Source of the DNA: a virus
Reading direction: 5' to 3' (one strand)
IMG/VR virus record: IMGVR_UViG_3300050821_024094
Span: 1-64,000 of that record
DNA length: 64,000 nt
The position numbers were made by a program, and so were the translations under genes. This document shows, one piece after another, positions 1,294 through 63,875 of the stretch (positions within the stretch are counted from its first letter, which is position 1; the number at the start of each line of letters is the position of its first letter). The notes beneath the pieces are model-generated. The model was given only the letters and a program-made list of their open reading frames with translations, was not told where the DNA came from and searched no databases.

Positions 1294-1319
1294 TGCTCCT
1301 GGGTGCTGTGGTAGGGGAA

Positions 1320-3244: not shown

Positions 3245-3287
3245 GTGAATCCTTTCTCAGTGGTAGGGATGACTGCCGGGTGCTCGG

Positions 3288-37351: not shown

Positions 37352-37481
37352 TGAGAGGTCTCCGTGTGGTAGGGAAGTGATTTGTTATGAGGGCACGCTT
37401 GCCACATGCGCGGGCGCACGCAAGATTAAATCGACGCGCGCGTCACGCTTTTCGAGTACTGTGACCGTTACAGGCAGAAAT

Positions 37482-39933: not shown

Positions 39934-40380
39934 TTAGGCGGCTTCGCAGAACATCTGCGCGCCGAACTGGAAGTTCCGGCAGGTGAGGTAGTTGCGCGAT
40001 CGGTCGCCGAACTTGGCATCCGACACGCTCTTGTCGATCGGGATCGCTTCGAGCCCTCGGATCACGAGCATGTCCTTCGTCCACAGATCGAGCGACGCCA
40101 TCGCTCCGCGCTTCACCCGCCCCGCCAGATGGGCATTGTTCGCCCAGTTATAGGGTTGGGCGACGCCACAGAAGTAGAGGATGTTCCCCTCGGGATAGGC
40201 GAGTTCGACATCGCGATTGATCGGTGACTTGAGGCCGAAGTTCTTGTCGAACTTTCCGACCAGGCAGCGAGCGCAGTGTACGTTTTCGTTGAACCCCTCG
40301 ACCGTCTTGAGCCAGAGATAGCGCCAGCCCCGCAAATGAAGGGCGTGCGAGCGAATGTGGTAGGAAACCCCGTCAGCCAT
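39934..40380 (-). CDS. Hypothetical Cys/His protein coupled to ParB-MTase
   Basis: HCARC, YFCG, NAHLA, CRNFQF. Confidence 0.65.
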   Translation of the reverse strand: MADGVSYHIRSHALHLRGWRYLWLKTVEGFNENVHCARCLVGKFDKNFGLKSPINRDVELAYPEGNILYFCGVAQPYNWANNAHLAGRVKRGAMASLDLWTKDMLVIRGLEAIPIDKSVSDAKFGDRSRNYLTCRNFQFGAQMFCEAA

Positions 40381-42476: not shown

Positions 42477-42508
42477 ACGAAAACACCTACCACACGGAGA
42501 CGACGACG

Positions 42509-44148: not shown

Positions 44149-44271
44149 CGGGTGCCCCCAAATCAGCGCAACGCCGTCAGCCCCGCCCGGTTCCTTACTC
44201 GTTAAAATTAACAATAAAGTGTGTTGCTGACATGCCACGCCACGTTTCCAATTTCCGATATCGTCATTTCG

Positions 44272-44886
44272 ATGATCAAGTCGCGCCTCGTACGCCCTGC
44301 GGGCTTCATCGAACCTTGCATTCCGGTCCTTGCTGACAAGCCGCCGACCGGTGAGCAATGGGTGCATGAAATCAAATACGACGGCTACCGCCTACAGGTG
44401 CATCGCAACGGCGAGCGCGTGCGCATCTTCACACGGCGCGGATTTGACTGGACGGATCGTTTTCCCGTCATCGCGTCGACGGCGCTGACGCTCAAGGCGA
44501 AAGCCTTCATCCTGGACGGTGAGGGTGTGGTCACAGACGCTGCAGGTGTGACGCAATTCGATCAGCTTCACGGCCATCGGCGCTACACGAGCGCGTTTTT
44601 GCAGGCGTTCGATCTTCTGTCGATCGAGGGCGATGATTTGCGCCGTCTTCCGCTGTTCGATCGCAAGGTGCTGCTGGACGGGCTGCTTATGGGTTCATAT
44701 TCGGGCATCGTCAACGATGGGCACGTGAAGGCACTCGGCGCGGTCGTGCTGGCCAAAGCGTGCCAACTCGGTCTGGAAGGCATCGTGTCGAAAAAGATCG
44801 ACGCGCCGTATCGCAGCGGCAAAAGCGGCGATTGGATCAAGGTTCGCAATCCCGAGGGACATGCAGCGAAACGGTTTGAGCGGTGA
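44272..44886 (+). CDS. ATP-dependent DNA ligase adenylation domain (LigD/LigC-like, no OB fold)
   Basis: EIKYDGYR, LDGE, FDLL, EGIVSKK, WIKV. Confidence 0.88.
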   Translation: MIKSRLVRPAGFIEPCIPVLADKPPTGEQWVHEIKYDGYRLQVHRNGERVRIFTRRGFDWTDRFPVIASTALTLKAKAFILDGEGVVTDAAGVTQFDQLHGHRRYTSAFLQAFDLLSIEGDDLRRLPLFDRKVLLDGLLMGSYSGIVNDGHVKALGAVVLAKACQLGLEGIVSKKIDAPYRSGKSGDWIKVRNPEGHAAKRFER

Positions 44887-47064: not shown

Positions 47065-47775
47065 TCAATCCGCCTCTAAAATATCCCCCAGGGCAATCTT
47101 ATCGATCAAAGTCGCGTCGTCATCGCTCGTGCGTGAACTATTCACACGTTTTGACACCGGCCACTTCTGCAACACGTCTTCGCCGGCCGGCTTCATCAGC
47201 GCGACGGCGTCGTTCGCGTCACCGTGTTCCCATTGCTCAAAGTCTTTGGCTTCGAGGATCACGGGCATGCGATCGTGGACTTCCGCAACGAACTTGTTCG
47301 GCACGGTGATGACCATCGTCGTCGACAACAGGTCGCTGCCGGCGTCCTTGTCTTTCCACTTCGACCACAAACCCGCGAACGTGATCGGATGCCCATCGCG
47401 CCGGGTGAAGTACCAAGGCTGCGGCTGCTTTACTCCGGTGGTGTGTTGCCATTCGTAATAGCCACTTGCCAGCATCAGGCAGCGACGATGCTTGAAGGAG
47501 TCTTTGAACATCGGCTTCGTCGCAACCGTTTCTGCGCGCGCGTTGAACGTCGCCATCTTCATTTCTTTGAGCGTCTTGTCCCACCAATACGGGATCAGCC
47601 CCCAGCGCATTGGGACAAGAGAGCGCTTGCCGTCAGTTGAGATCACGACGTCAACGGGCGTCGTCGGACAAATGTTGTAACGGGGCTGCGTATTGCGCGC
47701 CGGTGCGTCGAGGGTCAGCCGATACAGCCGGACAATCTCTTCCCAGGTCAGCTTGTAGGTGTACCGCCCACACAT
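47065..47775 (-). CDS. SOS response-associated peptidase (SRAP/YedK/HMCES family)
   Basis: MCGRY, YNI.PT, WGL.P.W, NARAET, YYEW, HDRMP, VNS. Confidence 0.95.
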   Translation of the reverse strand: MCGRYTYKLTWEEIVRLYRLTLDAPARNTQPRYNICPTTPVDVVISTDGKRSLVPMRWGLIPYWWDKTLKEMKMATFNARAETVATKPMFKDSFKHRRCLMLASGYYEWQHTTGVKQPQPWYFTRRDGHPITFAGLWSKWKDKDAGSDLLSTTMVITVPNKFVAEVHDRMPVILEAKDFEQWEHGDANDAVALMKPAGEDVLQKWPVSKRVNSSRTSDDDATLIDKIALGDILEAD

Positions 47776-47969: not shown

Positions 47970-48037
47970 CGCAGCGACAATGACTCTGACGACCAAAAAA
48001 AACGACTTCCCTACCACCCACCGCAACGGAGACGACA

Positions 48038-48570: not shown

Positions 48571-48607
48571 CAGCCTTCCCTACCACCCGAGCAACGAGAG
48601 AAAAATC

Positions 48608-50329: not shown

Positions 50330-50379
50330 AGCCAAGCCGACGCGGAAAACTGCGCGGCTCCCTACCACGGAGAAGACCA

Positions 50380-51012: not shown

Positions 51013-51110
51013 CCATGCCTTGGGTCGCGCTCTTCCTCGGTTTCTGGGCCGGCGACACGGTTGCATAAATAAGAACTTCCCTACCACCGATAAGCAACGA
51101 GGAATTGAGA

Positions 51111-51284: not shown

Positions 51285-51349
51285 GCCACTGAGAACCGAG
51301 GAGCCGGATCAACCGGCCCTCTCCATCCCTACCACCAGGATCAATCCCC

Positions 51350-52894: not shown

Positions 52895-52934
52895 CTCAAG
52901 ATCTAACCATCCCTACCACCAGGAGCAGACAACG

Positions 52935-53279
52935 ATGGCACTCCCAGCGACATACCGACCACGCGAAGGCGACATCCTGATCCTGCACGCGAGGGTCAAG
53001 CACAGCTTCACAGGCAGCGACGACGGGCTGTACGTCGAGATCGAAGGTCACTACAGCACGCCGTGCCTTCCACCGGAGAGTTTCGCAGGTGTCCATCGCC
53101 TCGGCTTCGAGGTTGGTGACTACGTTTGGCACGTCGACCAGCAAGCACACGCCACCGTGCTCGCGATCAACGGCAACCAAGCTTGGATCAAGTGGCAGAT
53201 CGGCGGGTCCACCATGGTCATTGCCATGACTGACCTAGAGCGCAGCGCGCGCCCGGAGCAAGCGGAGGCCGCGGAATGA
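52935..53279 (+). CDS. Hypothetical protein
   Basis: CCCTACCAC-C-AGGAG upstream. Confidence 0.6.
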   Translation: MALPATYRPREGDILILHARVKHSFTGSDDGLYVEIEGHYSTPCLPPESFAGVHRLGFEVGDYVWHVDQQAHATVLAINGNQAWIKWQIGGSTMVIAMTDLERSARPEQAEAAE

Positions 53280-54124
53280 ACACGCTCAAGACGACGCTGC
53301 TCCTGACCGCAATGATGGCAGCGTTCCTCGCCATCGGTAATTTGTTTGCCGACACCGCCGGCGCGGTGGTCGGCTTCATCGCCGCCATCCTGTTCGGTGC
53401 GCACACCTACTGGTACGGGCTTCAGAACGCCGTGCGCACGCATCAAGCCAAGCCCGCCGACTTCGCCCGCAAGCGAGAGCGACAGTTGATCGAGCTGGTC
53501 AACGAGCTCGCGAGAAACGCAGGCATCCCGACGCCTCGCGTCTTCGTGTTCGACAGCGCCCAGCCGAATGCGTTTGCCGCCGGGCGCGGACCGAGTCATT
53601 CCGCGATCATCGTCTCGACCGGGCTACTGGCCTGCCTCGATTGGAACGAAATCGCCGGCGTGATCGCGCACGAGCAGGCGCATATCAAGAACCGCGACGC
53701 GCTCACGATGACGGTTGCCTCTGGCCTGGCCGGCGTGATCGCCTTCCTTGCGGGGACCATCGCCATGCTCGGGCTGGCCAACCGCCGGGGCGGCGGGATC
53801 GGTGCGATCGTGTTCGGCGCCATCATGGCGCTTGGGGCGCTTGTGCTCCAAGCCATGCTCGGCCGGTCACGAGAGTATGTCGCCGACCGTGATGGCGCAG
53901 CGATCTGCGGTCACCCACTTTGGATCGCCAGGGCATTGCGCCGCATGAGCGGAGGAACGAAGCAGGTCAATCATGCTGCGGAGAGCAACCCGGCTCTATC
54001 GGCCCTCTACTTCGTGAACCCTCTGTCCGGGGGTTGGGTGGCGAGGATGTTCTCGACTCACCCGCCCGTTGAGAAGAGAATCAGACGACTGGAGCGAATG
54101 ACCGAACACGGAGGGACTAAGTGA
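53276..54124 (+). CDS. htpX: HtpX-like M48 membrane zinc protease
   Basis: PNAFA.GR, AHEQAH, SREY.AD, FSTHPP..RI.RL. Confidence 0.88.
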   Translation: MNTLKTTLLLTAMMAAFLAIGNLFADTAGAVVGFIAAILFGAHTYWYGLQNAVRTHQAKPADFARKRERQLIELVNELARNAGIPTPRVFVFDSAQPNAFAAGRGPSHSAIIVSTGLLACLDWNEIAGVIAHEQAHIKNRDALTMTVASGLAGVIAFLAGTIAMLGLANRRGGGIGAIVFGAIMALGALVLQAMLGRSREYVADRDGAAICGHPLWIARALRRMSGGTKQVNHAAESNPALSALYFVNPLSGGWVARMFSTHPPVEKRIRRLERMTEHGGTK

Positions 54125-54330
54125 AGCTCGCAGACGTTGACGTCCAAGACCTCATCACAGCGCTCCGCGATGAACGCAGTGTCGGTATCAGCGCAGCGCG
54201 GGAAGAACATCGGAAGCCGACGGACGCAGAAGAGATCACTTTCTGCGTCTTAAGGGCCCTAGAGTGCGCACTAGCAGCGGCGATTTCGCGGCGAGAGACA
54301 GAAGTTTACGACCCTACGTTGGGGGCTTGA
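54121..54330 (+). CDS. Hypothetical protein
   Basis: RBS GGAGG. Confidence 0.5.
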   Translation: MKLADVDVQDLITALRDERSVGISAAREEHRKPTDAEEITFCVLRALECALAAAISRRETEVYDPTLGA

Positions 54331-54433
54331 AAAAGAACCGGCCAGAACCCGAGGGCTCTGGCCGGTCTAGTTGGCAAATGCTTCCCTACCACAGGAGCAA
54401 CGAAGACGTGTCACAGGGACACGCGCCCTTCGT
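54330..54433 (-). ncRNA. Predicted ~104-nt trans-acting sRNA antisense to CCCTACCAC sites
   Basis: 5' hairpin, seed hairpin with loop UGUGGUAG, terminator stem with UUCUUUUU tail; promoter upstream. Confidence 0.7.
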
Positions 54434-54440
54434 AGCCCCG

Positions 54441-54469
54441 AACATGGATCAGGAAGCGGTGAATCGCAA
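54441..54469 (-). promoter_or_regulatory. Predicted sigma70-type promoter of the sRNA
   Basis: TTGCGA (54469-54464), 17-nt spacer, CATGTT (54446-54441). Confidence 0.55.
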
Positions 54470-54857
54470 GATGGCGCCTGCCCTAAATGTTAACGCCAGT
54501 GCCGCGACCAGGTCCGAGTGCAGAGCTTGCATTCGACCCGTTCAATCAGAACCTCCCGGCTAGTGCTTAGGCCGATGACGTCCGTCTCCGCCCCAAGCGG
54601 GCAGATGCAAGGGACGGCGCGGGCCTCGGAGACTTTGGCGGCCTTATCAACCGGCCGCTCGGCGGTGAGAACATCACATTCGGAGATCATGGTTTGGCCT
54701 GGAGGTTGCCCAGGCACAGATGCGCGTCCTCGCGCGCGCACGCGCGAGAGATGACCGATCGGAATGTGTCTGGAAATGCGAAACGCAAACGGGCCCCACC
54801 TGGGGGCCCGCGCAAGTTCCGCCGAATCTATTTATTTGTTAGCACGGTTGAGCAAGG

Positions 54858-55469
54858 CTAGCCAAGTGACATGAGACGCGCTTCGAGCGCCGCCGCCTCC
54901 AGGCCGTGACTTGCGAGAGCCGCATCGATCTGATCGTCAGCAGGCATCACCGCTTTGAGCTTGTGCGCGATCGCCACCATCTGGAGATCGCGCCGCTCAT
55001 AGACCGAGTTCCGGTGAAGGCCGAGTGAGCGAGCAATTTGCTGCCCCTCCTTCCCGGCCGCCATGCCGCAAATGATCTGATAGTCGCGGCGTCGGTTTTT
55101 CCCGACCAGGAGCTTGGGGAAGACGTCGAAGATGACGTGCATGCGCTGCACGTCCCTCGGCGTCGGCTGAGCGGTCCGGAGCAGAGAATCATTGCTCTGG
55201 TGCCCTGCCTCGATCGCGGCGAGCTCGGTGCGATAGGCTTCCATTCGCTCCTCTTGCGTGCGCGTAAATTCCGGCCAGAGAGACCGCATGGAGTAGAGCA
55301 ATGCGGCCTCCGGATCGGGGAGCTTCTTCATCGTCGTCATCGCCCGCTGGAGGACGTAGAAGACCAGATCGGTGGGTCTCACCCTTTCCTTGCCCTCGGC
55401 GACGAGAGCTTGGAGAGCATCCCTGAAAGCCAGGTGCAGGATCTCGGGGTAGTCCTTCTCCCCTGCCAT
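54858..55469 (-). CDS. Probable late transcription regulator (Q-position HTH protein)
   Basis: Last early-operon gene; IARSLGLHRNSV HTH; start re-called at MAGEKDY. Confidence 0.5.
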   Translation of the reverse strand: MAGEKDYPEILHLAFRDALQALVAEGKERVRPTDLVFYVLQRAMTTMKKLPDPEAALLYSMRSLWPEFTRTQEERMEAYRTELAAIEAGHQSNDSLLRTAQPTPRDVQRMHVIFDVFPKLLVGKNRRRDYQIICGMAAGKEGQQIARSLGLHRNSVYERRDLQMVAIAHKLKAVMPADDQIDAALASHGLEAAALEARLMSLG

Positions 55470-55792
55470 CACACCACCAGATCGTCTTCGGCCGGCAACG
55501 ATAGCTCGAGCCGCGCACTGGAGCGCTGCACAAGGTAGATCGCCTCCATCAGGTCGGGAGAGCGATCCTGGATCATGAAAACCTCGCCGCGTTCGTGCGC
55601 CAGACACACTTCGACCGCGAGAGCCTGGAGCACGATGCGCTGGTCGCCGGGCAGGTTGGAGAACTCGAGACTCTTGTCGCCGGCGAGGTTGCCTTGGTGG
55701 TAGATCGCGTAATCGCCGGCCTTCGCCATACGCAAGAAGACCTTGAACTCGTCCGCAGTGGTGACCGTGGTGGGTTTTTTCTTGGTGCTCAT
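55469..55792 (-). CDS. Hypothetical protein
   Basis: GD...YH.G.LA.D, V...Q.R; TGATG overlap with next gene. Confidence 0.6.
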   Translation of the reverse strand: MSTKKKPTTVTTADEFKVFLRMAKAGDYAIYHQGNLAGDKSLEFSNLPGDQRIVLQALAVEVCLAHERGEVFMIQDRSPDLMEAIYLVQRSSARLELSLPAEDDLVV

Positions 55793-55845
55793 TGGTCGAT
55801 GTCTCCGTGGTGGTAGGGATTGTGTTGTGTGTTTTTTGTGAGAGC

Positions 55846-56304
55846 TCAGAAGGGGATTTCGTCGTCGAGCTCGTCGCGACGAGACGTCTGCGGACCATCT
55901 GCCGGCGGAGGAGTGCCGGCGTCCGCCGGGCGATTGCCCTTGTTTTGGTCCCAGGCTTTGCAGCGGATGATTTGCAGCTCGGATTTGAACGGCCGCAGCA
56001 CGACCTCGGTCGCGTAGCGTTTGCCACCACCCTGGTCTTCCCAAGAGCGGGTCTCGAGCTGGCCCACGATCATGATCTGATCGCCCTTGGCGAGGTACTG
56101 TTCGATGACCTTCACCAGGCCATCGGCCCAGACGACGACGCGGTGCCACTGCGTCTTCTCCTTGCGCTCGCCCGTGCTCTTGTCCTTCCAGCTTTCCGAG
56201 GTGGCGATCGAGAGCGTCGCGAGCTTCGCACCGTCGGCGAGAGCTTTGACTTCGGGGTCCTGGCCGAGATTGCCGAGCAGGATGACTTTGTTCATTGCAG
56301 CCAT
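55846..56304 (-). CDS. ssb: Single-stranded DNA-binding protein
   Basis: NKVILLGNLGQDPE, WHRVV, DDEIPF. Confidence 0.97.
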   Translation of the reverse strand: MAAMNKVILLGNLGQDPEVKALADGAKLATLSIATSESWKDKSTGERKEKTQWHRVVVWADGLVKVIEQYLAKGDQIMIVGQLETRSWEDQGGGKRYATEVVLRPFKSELQIIRCKAWDQNKGNRPADAGTPPPADGPQTSRRDELDDEIPF

Positions 56305-56319
56305 GTGGTAGGTCTCCGT

Positions 56320-62121: not shown

Positions 62122-62204
62122 GTGGTAGGGTCTCTGTTAGATTTTATTTGGAGGGCGGCGTGGCCGGTTTATCCGACCACGCCGTAGTTCGAAGGGCTCG
62201 TCGT

Positions 62205-62612
62205 TTAGGCGGTCGAGACTTTTTCATCGAGCGCCCGCGCATGACGGGAGCACTCGGAACGATACGCGGCGCGCAGATTCTCGTAGACGTCCCAGTAGAT
62301 TCCTTTGGGACGGCGATACTCAAGATTCCACAGCAACGTCGGTGGCAATCGGTGCCGCACGGACAACCGGCGCATGGCGGTCTCCTTGTCGCCAGGGAAA
62401 CGGGTTTCCATCTTCACCATCTCCTGGGACATGCGGACCGCCTCGTCCATGTAGCCGGAGGGGTTGCTGATCCCACCTTGCTTCAACAGCAAAGACTCTT
62501 TGCTGCATTGCAAAAACTCTTGGGGGATACTCTTCATCGTTGAGGTTGGGATTTGAAGGAGGCGCCACGATGAGGGAACGATGGGCGCGGCCAGTAGATC
62601 GGTGCCGCTCAT
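62205..62612 (-). CDS. Hypothetical early protein (CII position)
   Basis: E.R.PGD...AM.RL, LW.L.YR; start uncertain. Confidence 0.5.
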   Translation of the reverse strand: MSGTDLLAAPIVPSSWRLLQIPTSTMKSIPQEFLQCSKESLLLKQGGISNPSGYMDEAVRMSQEMVKMETRFPGDKETAMRRLSVRHRLPPTLLWNLEYRRPKGIYWDVYENLRAAYRSECSRHARALDEKVSTA

Positions 62613-62941
62613 GCTGCAACTCCCGCGCCGGCATCACGTGCGGACGCGCGCGTAGCACGGTCCGTGCCAACGCCAGCACGACGAATTTCCGCCTGCTGGA
62701 TGGCAGTCATGTAGGTTTCGAGGATCGCGTCTTGTTCGGCCCGCTCGGAAGCATCCTTACGGCGAAACGCGATGACAGACTTGAGCGCTTTGACGTCGTA
62801 TCCGGCGCCCTTGGCTTCCTGATAGATGTCGCGCTTGTCGTCGTTGAGGTCTTTGATTTCCGCTTCGAGGTGCTCGACCCGCTCTACGAGGGAAAGCAAT
62901 TGTTCTCCCGCGGCTGAACTGGAACCATTTCCGTTTGACAT
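62609..62941 (-). CDS. gapR: GapR/DUF2312-like nucleoid protein
   Basis: QL...VERVE.LE.E, D...EAK..GYD.K, R.EQ.AIL..Y. Confidence 0.88.
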   Translation of the reverse strand: MSNGNGSSSAAGEQLLSLVERVEHLEAEIKDLNDDKRDIYQEAKGAGYDVKALKSVIAFRRKDASERAEQDAILETYMTAIQQAEIRRAGVGTDRATRASARDAGAGVAA

Positions 62942-62973
62942 GGTTGCCTCTCCGAACTCAGGGACGCGGTGTA

Positions 62974-63020
62974 TGCGGTTATTTTTCCGCTTTGTCAACC
63001 GGAAAGGTCTTTTAACCGCA
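62974..63020. promoter_or_regulatory. Divergent immunity promoter / operator region
   Basis: TTGACA on minus at 62993-62998; GCGG-N8-CCGC; inverted TGCGGTTA/TAACCGCA. Confidence 0.6.
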
Positions 63021-63107
63021 CCAATGGGGTTTTTTCCATGGGTGACAAGTGTTAGACATGCGCCGGAAGGGGTCCCGGTCTGAAATTTTGGGGGCGCGGA
63101 TTTAGTC

Positions 63108-63875
63108 ATGACCAGCGACAAGAACACGCCATATGCGATGCAACTGGCGGATATCCTTGCGAGAATCGAATCGCGACAGAAGGTGGTCGGACTTAGTGAC
63201 CACGCCGCCAGTCTCGAGGCAGGGCTGTCTCGTGACGCAATCCGAAGCATGCGCCGCGGCTTGAAGGACGGCAAACAAGAGGGGGTGCAGTCCAGAACTA
63301 TCCGCGCGCTCGCGGCACCCCTGCACACGACACCTGAATGGTTGATGACTGGCGAAGGGCCGGAGTCTCTCGACGCCGACGAGATTGCACCGCGTGCGCC
63401 CTTCCTCGAGGTGGTGGGAGAGATAGCCGCTGGCGTGTGGATTGCGGCAGACAAGCACTTGGTCGACCCGCCGCGCCTGCCTTATTTGGTCCCTCCAGAC
63501 CCCATGTATTCGCAGTCAGCGCAATTTGCGCTGATCATGCGCGGCTCATCGTTCAACCGATACGCCGCAGATGGCGACGCCGTCATTTGCATCGACGTGC
63601 GGCGGGCGAACCTGCGACTTCAGAACAACGATTTGGTTTTGGCCTGGAGCGTTCAAGTCGGCGGCTCCCTGAGAGAAATCACGGCGCGTCGACTGCATCT
63701 GCAGCGAAACGGTACTGGCGAGCTCACCTATGAATCGACGGATGATCGCTTCGCGTCGACGACCGAGCGCGTCTCACTGCGAGACGAAGGCCGTGTGACT
63801 AAAGTCGGAGCAGCGGAGATTTCAGTCACTGCCGTCGTGTGTGGCATCTATCGCTCCGTGCCACGCGGAAATTAG
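63108..63875 (+). CDS. CI/LexA-like repressor (HTH plus S24 domain)
   Basis: LA..L.TTPEWL.TG.G, GEIAAG, G.S, divergent from early operon. Confidence 0.85.
   Translation: MTSDKNTPYAMQLADILARIESRQKVVGLSDHAASLEAGLSRDAIRSMRRGLKDGKQEGVQSRTIRALAAPLHTTPEWLMTGEGPESLDADEIAPRAPFLEVVGEIAAGVWIAADKHLVDPPRLPYLVPPDPMYSQSAQFALIMRGSSFNRYAADGDAVICIDVRRANLRLQNNDLVLAWSVQVGGSLREITARRLHLQRNGTGELTYESTDDRFASTTERVSLRDEGRVTKVGAAEISVTAVVCGIYRSVPRGN

What the first reader, a model, noticed from the sequence alone, without database searches (positions are those of the whole stretch)
54330..54469. Candidate phage sRNA whose loop is antisense to start-region motifs of at least 13 phage genes
Seen, minus strand: TTGCGA-N17-CATGTT promoter, then ACGAAG-GGCG-CGTGTC-CCTGT-GACACG-T-CTTCGT (hairpin 1), TGCTCC-TGTGGTAG-GGAAGCA (hairpin 2, loop UGUGGUAG, with anti-SD CUCCU), then a 10-bp GC stem ending TTCTTTTT. 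The U-tract faces the minus strand, which has no adjacent gene to terminate. Its complement CTTCCCTACCACAGGAGCAACGAAGAC reads like the consensus of the start-associated sites. Examples: 48575 CTTCCCTACCACccGAGCAACGA; 52910 TCCCTACCACcAGGAGCA; 37377(-) CTTCCCTACCACAcGGAG. Established: P1 C4 and P4 CI RNAs are phage antisense regulators with few targets. Inference: one RNA represses translation of replication, late-regulator, packaging-region, lysis and accessory genes genome-wide, acting as a second, RNA-based immunity layer. I do not recognise the family.
Basis: partly seen in the sequence, partly recalled or inferred. Interest (0 to 1): 0.95.

Follow-up and report, generated by a model that had tools for sequence, protein, structure and literature searches.

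The report
Phage small RNA mirroring gene-start tag
An uncultured soil prophage puts the same ten-letter tag beside the start codons of about twenty early genes. It also carries one small RNA gene whose exposed part is the exact mirror of that tag, so a single RNA probably controls translation of the whole gene set.

Summary
The window is the first 64 kb of a 74.8-kb, 62% GC provirus record from soil, probably from an alphaproteobacterial host.

- **The tag.** (T)CCCTACCAC occurs 21 times exactly. Twenty copies lie in gene sense within about -31 to +12 of start codons of early DNA-metabolism and accessory genes. The 21st, at 54384-54392(+), is the template of a ~105-nt minus-strand unit.
- **The unit.** It has a sigma-70-like promoter, a 5' hairpin, a weak hairpin presenting UGGUAGGGAA, and a 14-bp terminator with a U-run.
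- **The relative.** One metagenomic relative (neighbouring protein 61% identical) keeps the same layout with a better promoter. It shows compensatory stem changes, a terminator of unrelated sequence and the same seed.
- **Co-variation.** The relative's seed and its own tags carry matching changes.
- **The rival ORF.** The plus-strand ORF 54408-54563 is not conserved.

Most likely this is a trans-acting sRNA that pairs with the tagged translation-initiation regions. Repression and an immunity role are inferred. No transcript data exist.

There is no Rfam family and I found no published description. This scan has noted analogous tag-plus-mirror-RNA layouts in other phage genomes. Cluster K mycobacteriophages show the same geometry.

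The parts
54464..54469 (-). -35-like hexamer TTGCGA of the candidate sRNA promoter
   Evidence: Read. It aligns with TTGTCA of the relative L006. L006 passes the promoter scan at 9/12. The window's site is weaker (7/12) and did not pass the scan.
54441..54446 (-). -10-like hexamer CATGTT, 17 nt after the -35
   Evidence: It aligns with TACATT of L006.
54330..54436 (-). Candidate sRNA of about 105 nt. The 5' end is inferred from the -10 box; the 3' end is the U-run.
   Evidence: Fold z-score -5.0. The minus strand folds 10.6 kcal/mol better than the plus strand. The consensus three-hairpin fold with L006 has 6 of 28 pairs compensatory. No Rfam match.
54400..54433 (-). Hairpin 1. The outer stem CGAAG/CUUCG is conserved; the inner stem is changed compensatorily in L006.
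54379..54399 (-). Hairpin 2 (weak, -7.4 kcal/mol) carrying the seed. GUGGUA is in the loop and GGGAAG in the 3' arm.
   Evidence: Unpaired probability is 0.63-0.84 for GUGGUA. The L006 homologue has UGGU in the loop at 0.98-1.0.
54381..54392 (-). Seed GUGGUAGGGAAG, mirror of CTTCCCTACCAC. UGGUAGGGAA is identical in L006.
   Evidence: This is the most conserved block of the locus.
54330..54367 (-). Intrinsic terminator: 14-bp stem, 4-nt loop, CTTTTT
   Evidence: L006 has a hairpin of unrelated sequence plus CCTTTT at the same place.
54490..54690 (-). Small Cys-rich ORF (66 aa) directly upstream of the sRNA promoter
   Evidence: Conserved in L006 (tblastn 37.5% identity, E 2.6e-7). No Pfam or PHROG family.
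54789..54811 (-). Terminator after the DUF6362-like gene. It ends the replication-gene operon.
   Evidence: Conserved with compensatory change in L006.
54858..55469 (-). DUF6362-like gene (203 aa), the marker used to find the relative
1308..1316 (-). Tag copy 15 nt before the ATG of the 430-aa ORF (weak exonuclease-like match)
3260..3268 (-). Tag copy 16 nt before the ATG of the 89-aa ORF
37366..37374 (-). Tag copy before the 90-aa ORF. It has 13 nt of unbroken complementarity to the sRNA.
40357..40365 (-). One-mismatch copy (TCCTACCAC) at +16..+24 inside the 148-aa ORF. A possible extra target.
42485..42493 (+). One-mismatch copy before the ParB-like gene
48009..48017 (+). Tag copy before the 60-aa ORF
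48578..48586 (+). Tag copy before the 125-aa ORF. 21 of 23 positions match the sRNA template.
50360..50368 (+). Tag copy before the 129-aa ORF
51079..51087 (+). Tag copy before the 57-aa ORF
51327..51335 (+). Tag copy before the DUF4942/N6-methyltransferase gene
52911..52919 (+). Tag copy before the 114-aa ORF
55810..55818 (-). Tag copy before the 107-aa gene between SSB and the DUF6362-like gene
   Evidence: The homologous gene in L006-L008 carries CCCTACCAG.
56305..56313 (-). One-mismatch copy abutting the ATG of the SSB gene
   Evidence: The homologous SSB genes in L006-L008 carry CCTACCAA.
62122..62130 (-). Tag copy abutting the ATG of the DnaA-HTH-like gene

Best explanation
The locus encodes a trans-acting small RNA of about 105 nt on the minus strand.

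How it is made (inferred from sequence and one relative): it is transcribed from its own sigma-70-type promoter, and possibly also as the tail of the upstream small-ORF mRNA. It ends at a strong intrinsic terminator.

How it acts (inferred): its conserved seed UGGUAGGGAA is half-exposed in the loop of a weak hairpin. The seed pairs with the tag (U)UCCCUACCAC, which sits 0-22 nt before, or just after, the start codons of about 20 early and accessory genes of the same phage. The loop UGGU(A) would nucleate pairing and the weak stem would then open.

In many targets the duplex can extend over the Shine-Dalgarno region. The second conserved block GUCUUCGUUG matches the tagged genes' unusual SD context CAACGGAGAC with one G·U pair. 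The most likely outcome is coordinated blockage of 30S binding, that is, translational repression of the tagged gene set.

When it acts is not shown. It may act as a threshold or immunity layer in the lysogen, or as an early-gene shut-off.
For: 1. The tag is real and start-bound.
- There are 21 exact copies. Twenty lie in gene sense within -31..+21 of start codons (P about 2e-27).
- In 11 intergenic gaps the tag lies nearer the start codon than random placement predicts (Fisher P 0.014).
- Several copies lie inside the upstream ORF, or just after the start codon (64368). That fits an mRNA-level role at the initiation region, not a promoter role.

2. The 21st copy lies in about 730 bp without coding signal, inside a unit with minus-strand signals only.
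- The terminator has a U-run on the minus strand alone.
- The minus strand folds better than the plus strand in the window (-55.5 vs -44.9 kcal/mol) and in the relative (-46.8 vs -38.2).

3. The relative L006 (neighbouring protein 61% identical) keeps the unit at the same place.
- Its promoter TTGTCA-N16-TACATT scores 9/12.
- Three 10-nt blocks are identical, in a background of 35-50% identity.
- The three-hairpin fold has 6 of 28 pairs compensatory.
- Its terminator has unrelated sequence.
- Similarity stops right after the terminator.

4. Seed and tags change together.
- Window: seed GUGGUAGG with tags CCTACCAC.
- L006: seed UUGGUAGG with tags CCTACCAA (SSB) and CCCTACCAG (G·U) in L006-L008.
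- The cognate seed gives the better duplex for 18 of 19 window targets and for 6 of 6 targets in the relatives.

5. The tagged initiation regions form a discrete class. Duplex energy with the seed is -18 to -27 kcal/mol, against a mean of -12.8 for 68 other gene starts and -12.5 +/- 2.6 for random windows.

6. CGGAGA is found in 9 tagged starts and only 2 of about 63 untagged ones.
Against: - No transcript evidence of any kind exists. No RNA run holds the sequence.
- The window's own promoter is weak (7/12) and did not pass the scan.
- There is only one homologue, so the co-variation rests on two lineages.
- Co-variation of the tag and its inverted copy would also arise if all copies were sites for one protein.
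- The 3' half of the seed is paired in the predicted fold.
- Neither the tag nor the RNA was found in 80 primase-related IMG/VR loci, so the system is narrowly distributed.
- The direction of the effect (repression or activation) is not addressed by any result.
Confidence: 0.55

Rival explanations
1. Same base-pairing function, but no independent sRNA gene. The anti-tag region is the 3'UTR of the small Cys-rich ORF (54490-54690), or of read-through from the replication operon. It acts in that form or after processing.
For: - The conserved small ORF ends 21 nt before the -35 box and has no terminator of its own before 54367.
- The window promoter is weak.
- No clear promoter was seen for the small ORF.
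Against: - L006 has a good promoter at exactly the homologous place, between the ORF stop and hairpin 1.
- The two origins are not exclusive.
Confidence: 0.17
2. The copy at 54384 is one more ordinary plus-strand tag in front of a small plus-strand gene (GTG 54408 to 54563). The hairpins are just a bidirectional terminator zone between convergent operons.
For: - The copy is followed by AGGAG and a GTG at a normal distance.
- All other copies precede genes.
Against: - The ORF has no GC3 bias: 0.62, against about 0.8 in real genes.
- In L006 the Shine-Dalgarno is lost (AGAAA) and the conserved block is read in another frame, with no protein similarity.
- Every clearly coding tagged gene starts with ATG. 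The only other GTG is the start I inferred at 64363.
- The terminator U-run and the promoter face the minus strand.
Confidence: 0.07
3. The tag is a DNA site for a phage DNA-binding protein. This would resemble the asymmetric, transcription-oriented stoperators of Cluster A mycobacteriophages. The 54384 copy would then block rightward read-through. The RNA complementarity would be a by-product.
For: - All copies are oriented with transcription.
- The 54384 copy has the orientation of the rightward operon that ends just before it.
- Protein-site co-variation would look the same in L006.
Against: - The copies are tied to start codons, not merely to intergenic DNA. Some overlap coding sequence on either side of a start codon.
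- A DNA site would not need the flanking minus-strand promoter, the conserved hairpins with G·U pairs or the terminator.
- The second conserved block matches the targets' SD context.
Confidence: 0.08
4. The RNA pairs with the tag but activates or stabilises the tagged mRNAs, for example by opening structure or protecting them from RNases. Alternatively it titrates a factor that reads the tag.
For: Nothing in the sequence fixes the sign of regulation. Tags often lie upstream of the SD, not on it.
Against: - In many targets the pairing can run across the SD or abuts the AUG. That geometry usually blocks initiation (general knowledge of sRNA action).
- No conserved inhibitory structure was seen in the targets, though this was not analysed systematically.
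Confidence: 0.1

Closest known systems
Start-associated sequences (SAS) of Cluster K mycobacteriophages (Pope et al. 2011, PMC3203893)
   Same: - A private conserved motif next to the start codons of 13-19 non-structural genes.
- All copies in gene sense except a single reversed copy.
- The role is still called unknown in 2024-2025.
- I confirmed that the reversed copy of Anaya and Adephagia lies in a non-coding gap, and that its mirror sits in the 10-nt loop of a strong hairpin.
   Different: - Different phage group and host (Actinobacteria vs probable Alphaproteobacteria).
- The motif is unrelated: GGGATAGGAGCCC contains the SD at a fixed 3-9 nt spacing. Here TCCCTACCAC lacks the SD and sits 0-22 nt before, or just after, the start.
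- No anti-SAS RNA has been proposed in the papers I read.
c4 antisense RNA of phages P1/P7 and CI RNA of P4 (Rfam C4, RF01695)
   Same: Phage-encoded small antisense RNAs, made in the lysogen, whose exposed bases pair with repeated sites in the phage's own mRNA to keep lytic functions off (established knowledge).
   Different: - They have two target sites in one operon, not about 20 across the genome.
- There is no sequence or structure match.
- c4 and CI are processed from a longer transcript. Here a dedicated promoter is predicted.
GcvB-type multi-target sRNAs of enterobacteria
   Same: One seed recognises a short shared C/A-rich element in the initiation regions of many mRNAs and represses them together (established knowledge).
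   Different: - GcvB is host-encoded and its targets are host transporter genes.
- Its target element is loose. Here the tag is an exact 9-12-mer that looks purpose-built and phage-private.
T4 RegA translational repressor (reviewed in PMC3014915)
   Same: One phage factor binds the initiation regions of many early mRNAs to shut off their translation. This is a functional analogy for the proposed role.
   Different: RegA is a protein with loose AU-rich sites. Here the factor is proposed to be an RNA with exact complementarity.
26-bp SAS-like repeat of Citrobacter phage Mordin (PMC4611695)
   Same: A repeat upstream of the starts of 8 genes in a phage of Gram-negative bacteria, role unknown.
   Different: The sequence is unrelated and no mirror RNA was reported. 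I did not examine that genome.

Membership tests
Start-associated sequences (Cluster K type) | Conserved motif next to the start codons of many genes, in gene sense | tested here: met
   20 of 21 exact copies lie within -31..+21 of starts, all in sense.
Start-associated sequences (Cluster K type) | Consensus GGGATAGGAGCCC that includes the Shine-Dalgarno, 3-9 nt before the start | tested here: not met
   The motif here is TCCCTACCAC. It has no SD inside it and its spacing varies from 0 to 22 nt.
Start-associated sequences (Cluster K type) | Confined to non-structural genes | tested here: met
   Tagged genes are SSB, clamp, Gam, ParB, methyltransferase, a DnaA-HTH-like protein, a dNTP pyrophosphohydrolase and unknowns. 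No copies lie in the structural block between about 3.5 and 36 kb.
Start-associated sequences (Cluster K type) | A single copy on the complementary strand | tested here: met
   Only 54384 here. One reversed copy each in Anaya and Adephagia.
C4 antisense RNA family (P1 c4 / P4 CI; Rfam RF01695) | Match to the family covariance model | tested here: not met
   No Rfam hit at gathering score, or at E up to 10 in 54200-54900.
C4 antisense RNA family (P1 c4 / P4 CI; Rfam RF01695) | Exposed bases complementary to repeated sites in the phage's own mRNA near ribosome-binding sites | tested here: met
   9-13 nt of unbroken complementarity to 19-21 initiation regions.
C4 antisense RNA family (P1 c4 / P4 CI; Rfam RF01695) | Expressed in the lysogen and confers immunity | not testable with these tools
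   The provirus is uncultured and no RNA run holds it.
Trans-acting bacterial sRNA (general class) | Own promoter | tested here: inconclusive
   The window scores 7/12 and fails the scan. The homologous site in L006 scores 9/12 and passes.
Trans-acting bacterial sRNA (general class) | Intrinsic terminator with a U-tail on the RNA strand | tested here: met
   A structural equivalent is present in L006.
Trans-acting bacterial sRNA (general class) | Conserved, at least partly unpaired seed | tested here: met
   UGGUAGGGAA is identical in both. UGGU(A) is unpaired with probability 0.63-1.0.
Trans-acting bacterial sRNA (general class) | Structure kept by compensatory changes | tested here: met
   6 of 28 pairs are compensatory, but with two sequences only.
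Cluster A stoperators (DNA operators) | Asymmetric sites oriented with transcription | tested here: met
Cluster A stoperators (DNA operators) | Bound by the phage repressor as double-stranded DNA | not testable with these tools

The most novel reading that the evidence does not exclude
Start-associated sequences are, in general, landing pads for a cognate phage-encoded 'anti-SAS' RNA. This would hold for the soil alphaproteobacterial prophage here, for Cluster K mycobacteriophages, and for the other phages in which this scan noted the same layout. Each phage lineage would write a private address on a block of early genes and carry one mirror copy in a structured RNA that switches their translation together. 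That would answer what SAS are for, a question open since 2011.
Probability: 0.35. Interest if true: 0.85.

Novelty: new variant of a known kind. Interest (0 to 1): 0.75.

Why it matters
- Phage antisense regulators known so far (P1 c4, P4 CI, P22 sar, lambda OOP) act on one or two sites. Here one small RNA appears to address about twenty initiation regions through a purpose-built tag. That would be an RNA-based regulon inside a phage genome.
- It offers a concrete, testable mechanism for start-associated sequences. The literature I read still calls their role unknown (PMC11373665, PMC12699233).
- It points to an immediate test in cultured Cluster K mycobacteriophages, where the mirror copy sits in a hairpin loop.
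- If true, such tag and RNA pairs would also be compact, orthogonal translation switches.

Tried and rejected
- **Rfam.** Nothing at the locus at gathering score or at E up to 10.
- **Exact-pattern scans of IMG/VR.** The sRNA template and two conserved blocks gave only chance hits in unrelated, low-GC or coding DNA.
- **Single-protein locus searches.** The 390-aa composite ORF, the primase/helicase and the DUF6362-like pair found nothing in viral or genome contigs.
- **INPHARED phages.** No near match. There were only SSB-level distant matches and no protein match for the DUF6362-like gene.
- **Sequencing runs.** No RNA holder is listed.
- **Laying four soil DNA runs.** This gave only short identical fragments and no variants at the locus.
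- **Duplex folding with a 31-nt seed.** Run across the whole genome, it was too noisy in this GC-rich DNA. A 17-nt seed on initiation regions was used instead.
- **Covariance model of the two RNAs.** It found no further member in 80 primase-related loci. One weak hit (L021, E 0.035) lies in apparent coding sequence.
- **De novo search for any start-bound 8-mer.** It found none in those 80 loci, although it recovers the tag here and in Anaya.
- **Plus-strand ORF 54408-54563.** Rejected. A type I toxin reading is also rejected, because the peptide is not hydrophobic.
- **First gap statistic.** In one search it included wrong gap lengths for copies that overlap upstream ORFs. It was recomputed on 11 clean gaps.

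Full report
**What the DNA is.** The window is bases 1-64000 of a 74,777-bp virus record with 62% GC. IMG/VR classes it as a provirus and CheckV puts completeness at 87%. The same proteins occur on an 89,957-bp contig.

Soil metagenomes hold the sequence. A GapR-like DNA-binding domain points to an alphaproteobacterial host of the Hyphomicrobiales type. So do primase/helicase relatives in Bradyrhizobium, Methylobacterium and Enterovirga genomes. An S24-like repressor candidate fits a temperate phage. No close relative is in the public phage collection.

**The observation.**
- TTGCGA at 54469-54464, a 17-nt spacer, then CATGTT at 54446-54441.
- Hairpin 1 at 54433-54400.
- GUGGUAGGG at 54392-54384.
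- A 14-bp terminator stem at 54367-54336, followed by a U-run that ends at 54330.

The RNA folds much better than shuffled sequence, with z of -5.0 to -5.7. Rfam has nothing here.

**The tag.** CCCTACCAC occurs 21 times exactly in the record, and most copies are preceded by T. Twenty copies lie in the sense of the local gene:
- 17 lie 0-22 nt before a start codon, and further one-mismatch copies lie beside starts as well.
- One starts at codon 2 of the first ORF right of the repressor region, at record position 64368.

A one-mismatch copy lies just inside another ORF, at 40365. Only about 4% of strand-specific positions lie that close to a start, which gives P about 2e-27.

Where the intergenic gap is long, the tag still hugs the start codon (11 clean gaps, Fisher P 0.014). 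Other copies overlap the end of the upstream ORF. So the tag belongs to the translation-initiation region, not to promoters or to intergenic DNA as such.

The tagged genes I could name are early DNA-metabolism functions:
- SSB
- a sliding-clamp-like processivity factor
- a Gam-like protein
- a ParB-like protein
- a DUF4942/N6-methyltransferase
- a DnaA-HTH-like protein
- a dATP/dGTP pyrophosphohydrolase

The structural block between about 3.5 and 36 kb has no copies. Tagged genes also share an unusual Shine-Dalgarno context, (CAA)CGGAGA(C). It occurs in 9 tagged starts and in 2 of about 63 untagged ones.

**The locus around the 21st copy.** The gap 54124-54858 between convergent gene blocks has no coding signal: GC3 is about 0.6, against about 0.8 in genes.

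The 390-aa ORF in the mechanical list is a composite. The real genes are a 107-aa gene at 55469-55792 and a 203-aa DUF6362-like gene at 54858-55469.

Going down the minus strand from there, the order is:
1. A terminator at 54811-54789.
2. A 66-aa Cys-rich ORF at 54690-54490.
3. The promoter-like site.
4. The three hairpins.

The RNA could also be made as the tail of that small mRNA.

**Comparative evidence.** The DUF6362-like protein has one non-self relative in 5.8 billion proteins. A metagenome scan returned three soil contigs with it.

One of them, L006, extends 890 bp downstream and repeats the whole arrangement:
- Terminator.
- Small ORF, 37.5% identical.
- TTGTCA-N16-TACATT, which passes the promoter scan at 9/12.
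- CGAAGGGCGC, a changed inner stem, then GUCUUCGUUG.
- A weak hairpin with UGGUAGGGAA.
- A strong hairpin of unrelated sequence followed by CCUUUU.

Identity is 35-50% in the flanks and the small ORF. It rises to 63% in hairpin 1 and 83% in the seed core, and drops to noise right after the terminator.

The consensus fold has three hairpins, with 6 of 28 pairs compensatory. In both phages the minus-sense RNA folds better than the plus-sense one, as expected from its G·U pairs. The 5' half of the seed is unpaired with probability 0.63-1.0. Hairpin 2 alone is worth only -6 to -7 kcal/mol.

**Seed and tag change together.** In the window the seed region reads GUGGUAGG and the tags read CCTACCAC. 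In L006 the seed reads UUGGUAGG. The homologous SSB and 107-aa genes of L006-L008 carry CCTACCAA and CCCTACCAG.

The L006 RNA can pair over 14 positions, two of them G·U, with the CCCUACCAGAGGAA of its neighbour gene. That stretch covers the gene's Shine-Dalgarno.

The cognate seed gives the better duplex for 18 of 19 window targets, with means of -28.6 against -22.3 kcal/mol. It is also better for all 6 sites in the relatives, although the L006 seed is poorer in G+C. This rests on two lineages. It would also be expected if all copies were sites for one protein, so it supports the RNA reading but does not prove it.

**The plus-strand alternative.** The copy at 54384 is followed by AGGAG and a GTG that opens a 51-codon ORF. 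That ORF has no GC3 bias. In L006 the Shine-Dalgarno is gone and the conserved block falls in another frame. I reject it.

**Targets.** With a 17-nt seed, the 19 tagged initiation regions give -18 to -27 kcal/mol. The 68 other gene starts average -12.8, and random windows average -12.5 +/- 2.6. Unbroken complementarity is 9-13 nt. Several targets add a second block (for example GAGCAACGA or GGAGCAAC) after a small bulge.

The conserved block GUCUUCGUUG can pair with the tagged genes' CAACGGAGAC with one G·U pair. This is my reading.

**Mechanism.** Shown by sequence and comparison:
- a conserved, minus-oriented, structured unit whose seed mirrors a start-bound tag.

Inferred:
- it is transcribed;
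- it pairs with the tags;
- pairing blocks ribosome binding and so represses about 20 genes together.

Timing is open. Alternatively the RNA could set a threshold that a burst of tagged mRNAs titrates on induction. Early-gene shut-off is equally possible.

**Distribution.** Neither the tag nor the RNA occurs in 80 IMG/VR loci related through the primase at 42-64% identity. The system is therefore a narrow-lineage feature.

**Relation to known systems.** The nearest described thing is the SAS of Cluster K mycobacteriophages. Papers from 2011, 2024 and 2025 still call its role unknown.

Pope et al. noted one copy on the complementary strand. I checked where it lies:
- In Anaya it lies in the non-coding gp96-97 gap.
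- In Adephagia it lies in the gp92-93 gap.
- In both, the rightward RNA folds so that the mirror sequence CCUCCUAUCC is the 10-nt loop of a long GC-rich hairpin.
- The Adephagia paper reports that late transcription appears to start between genes 92 and 93.

That is the same geometry as here. It is a lead, not proof.

This scan's earlier notes list the same tag-plus-mirror-RNA layout in several other phage genomes. They are unchecked AI notes and I did not count them as evidence. I found no paper that proposes such an RNA.

**Verdict.** This is most likely a new family of phage sRNA with a dedicated multi-gene tag. It is a new variant of antisense control, not a new principle. No expression data exist yet.

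Noticed in passing
L093:4683-4695 (Adephagia JF704105) and L092:34871-34883 (Anaya JF704106): The single reverse-orientation SAS copy of these Cluster K1 mycobacteriophages lies in a non-coding gap near the right end. On the rightward RNA its mirror CCUCCUAUCC forms the 10-nt loop of a long GC-rich hairpin (z -3.9 to -6.9). The Adephagia paper reports that late transcription appears to start in that gap.
   Followed up: partly
window 54490-54690 (-): A 66-aa Cys-rich ORF directly upstream of the sRNA is conserved in L006 (37.5% identity), with three conserved Cys and a C.RTW.R.W end. It has no Pfam or PHROG family. It could work with the RNA, but nothing tested here says so.
   Followed up: partly
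tagged gene starts, e.g. window 48018-48037, 37352-37365, 55793-55809: Tagged genes share the SD context (CAA)CGGAGA(C). It occurs in 9 tagged starts against 2 of about 63 untagged ones. It is complementary, with one G·U pair, to the second conserved block GUCUUCGUUG of the sRNA.
   Followed up: partly
L011:2364-2747 (record 64363-64746, beyond the window): The first ORF right of the repressor region seems to start at a GTG. The tag occupies codons 2-4, and a second tag lies in its last codons, ahead of the Gam-like gene. Both encode Leu-Pro-Thr-Thr. An inverted repeat GCGGA-N6-TCCGC lies in the putative promoter just upstream.
   Followed up: partly
window 54858-56030 (-): The 390-aa ORF in the mechanical list is a composite. 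The real genes are a 107-aa gene (55469-55792, another frame) and a 203-aa DUF6362-like gene (54858-55469) whose C-terminal part looks like a helix-turn-helix. They overlap by ATGA-type coupling.
   Followed up: yes
window 62609-63454 (-) and 63108-63875 (+): A GapR-like DNA-binding domain protein and an S24-peptidase-like repressor candidate overlap on opposite strands as listed, so one start is mis-set. GapR-type domains point to an alphaproteobacterial host.
   Followed up: no
window 53276-54124 (+) and 47065-47775 (-): The provirus carries an M48-family peptidase, an SRAP (SOS-response-associated peptidase) gene and an ATP-dependent DNA ligase domain gene (44221-44886) in its accessory region.
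   Followed up: no
L014 and L019 (IMG/VR relatives by primase): Two related phage contigs hold 9-mers repeated many times on one strand: GGTTCGCGC x18 in L014 and ACCTGAGCC x14 in L019. I did not look at what they are.
   Followed up: no
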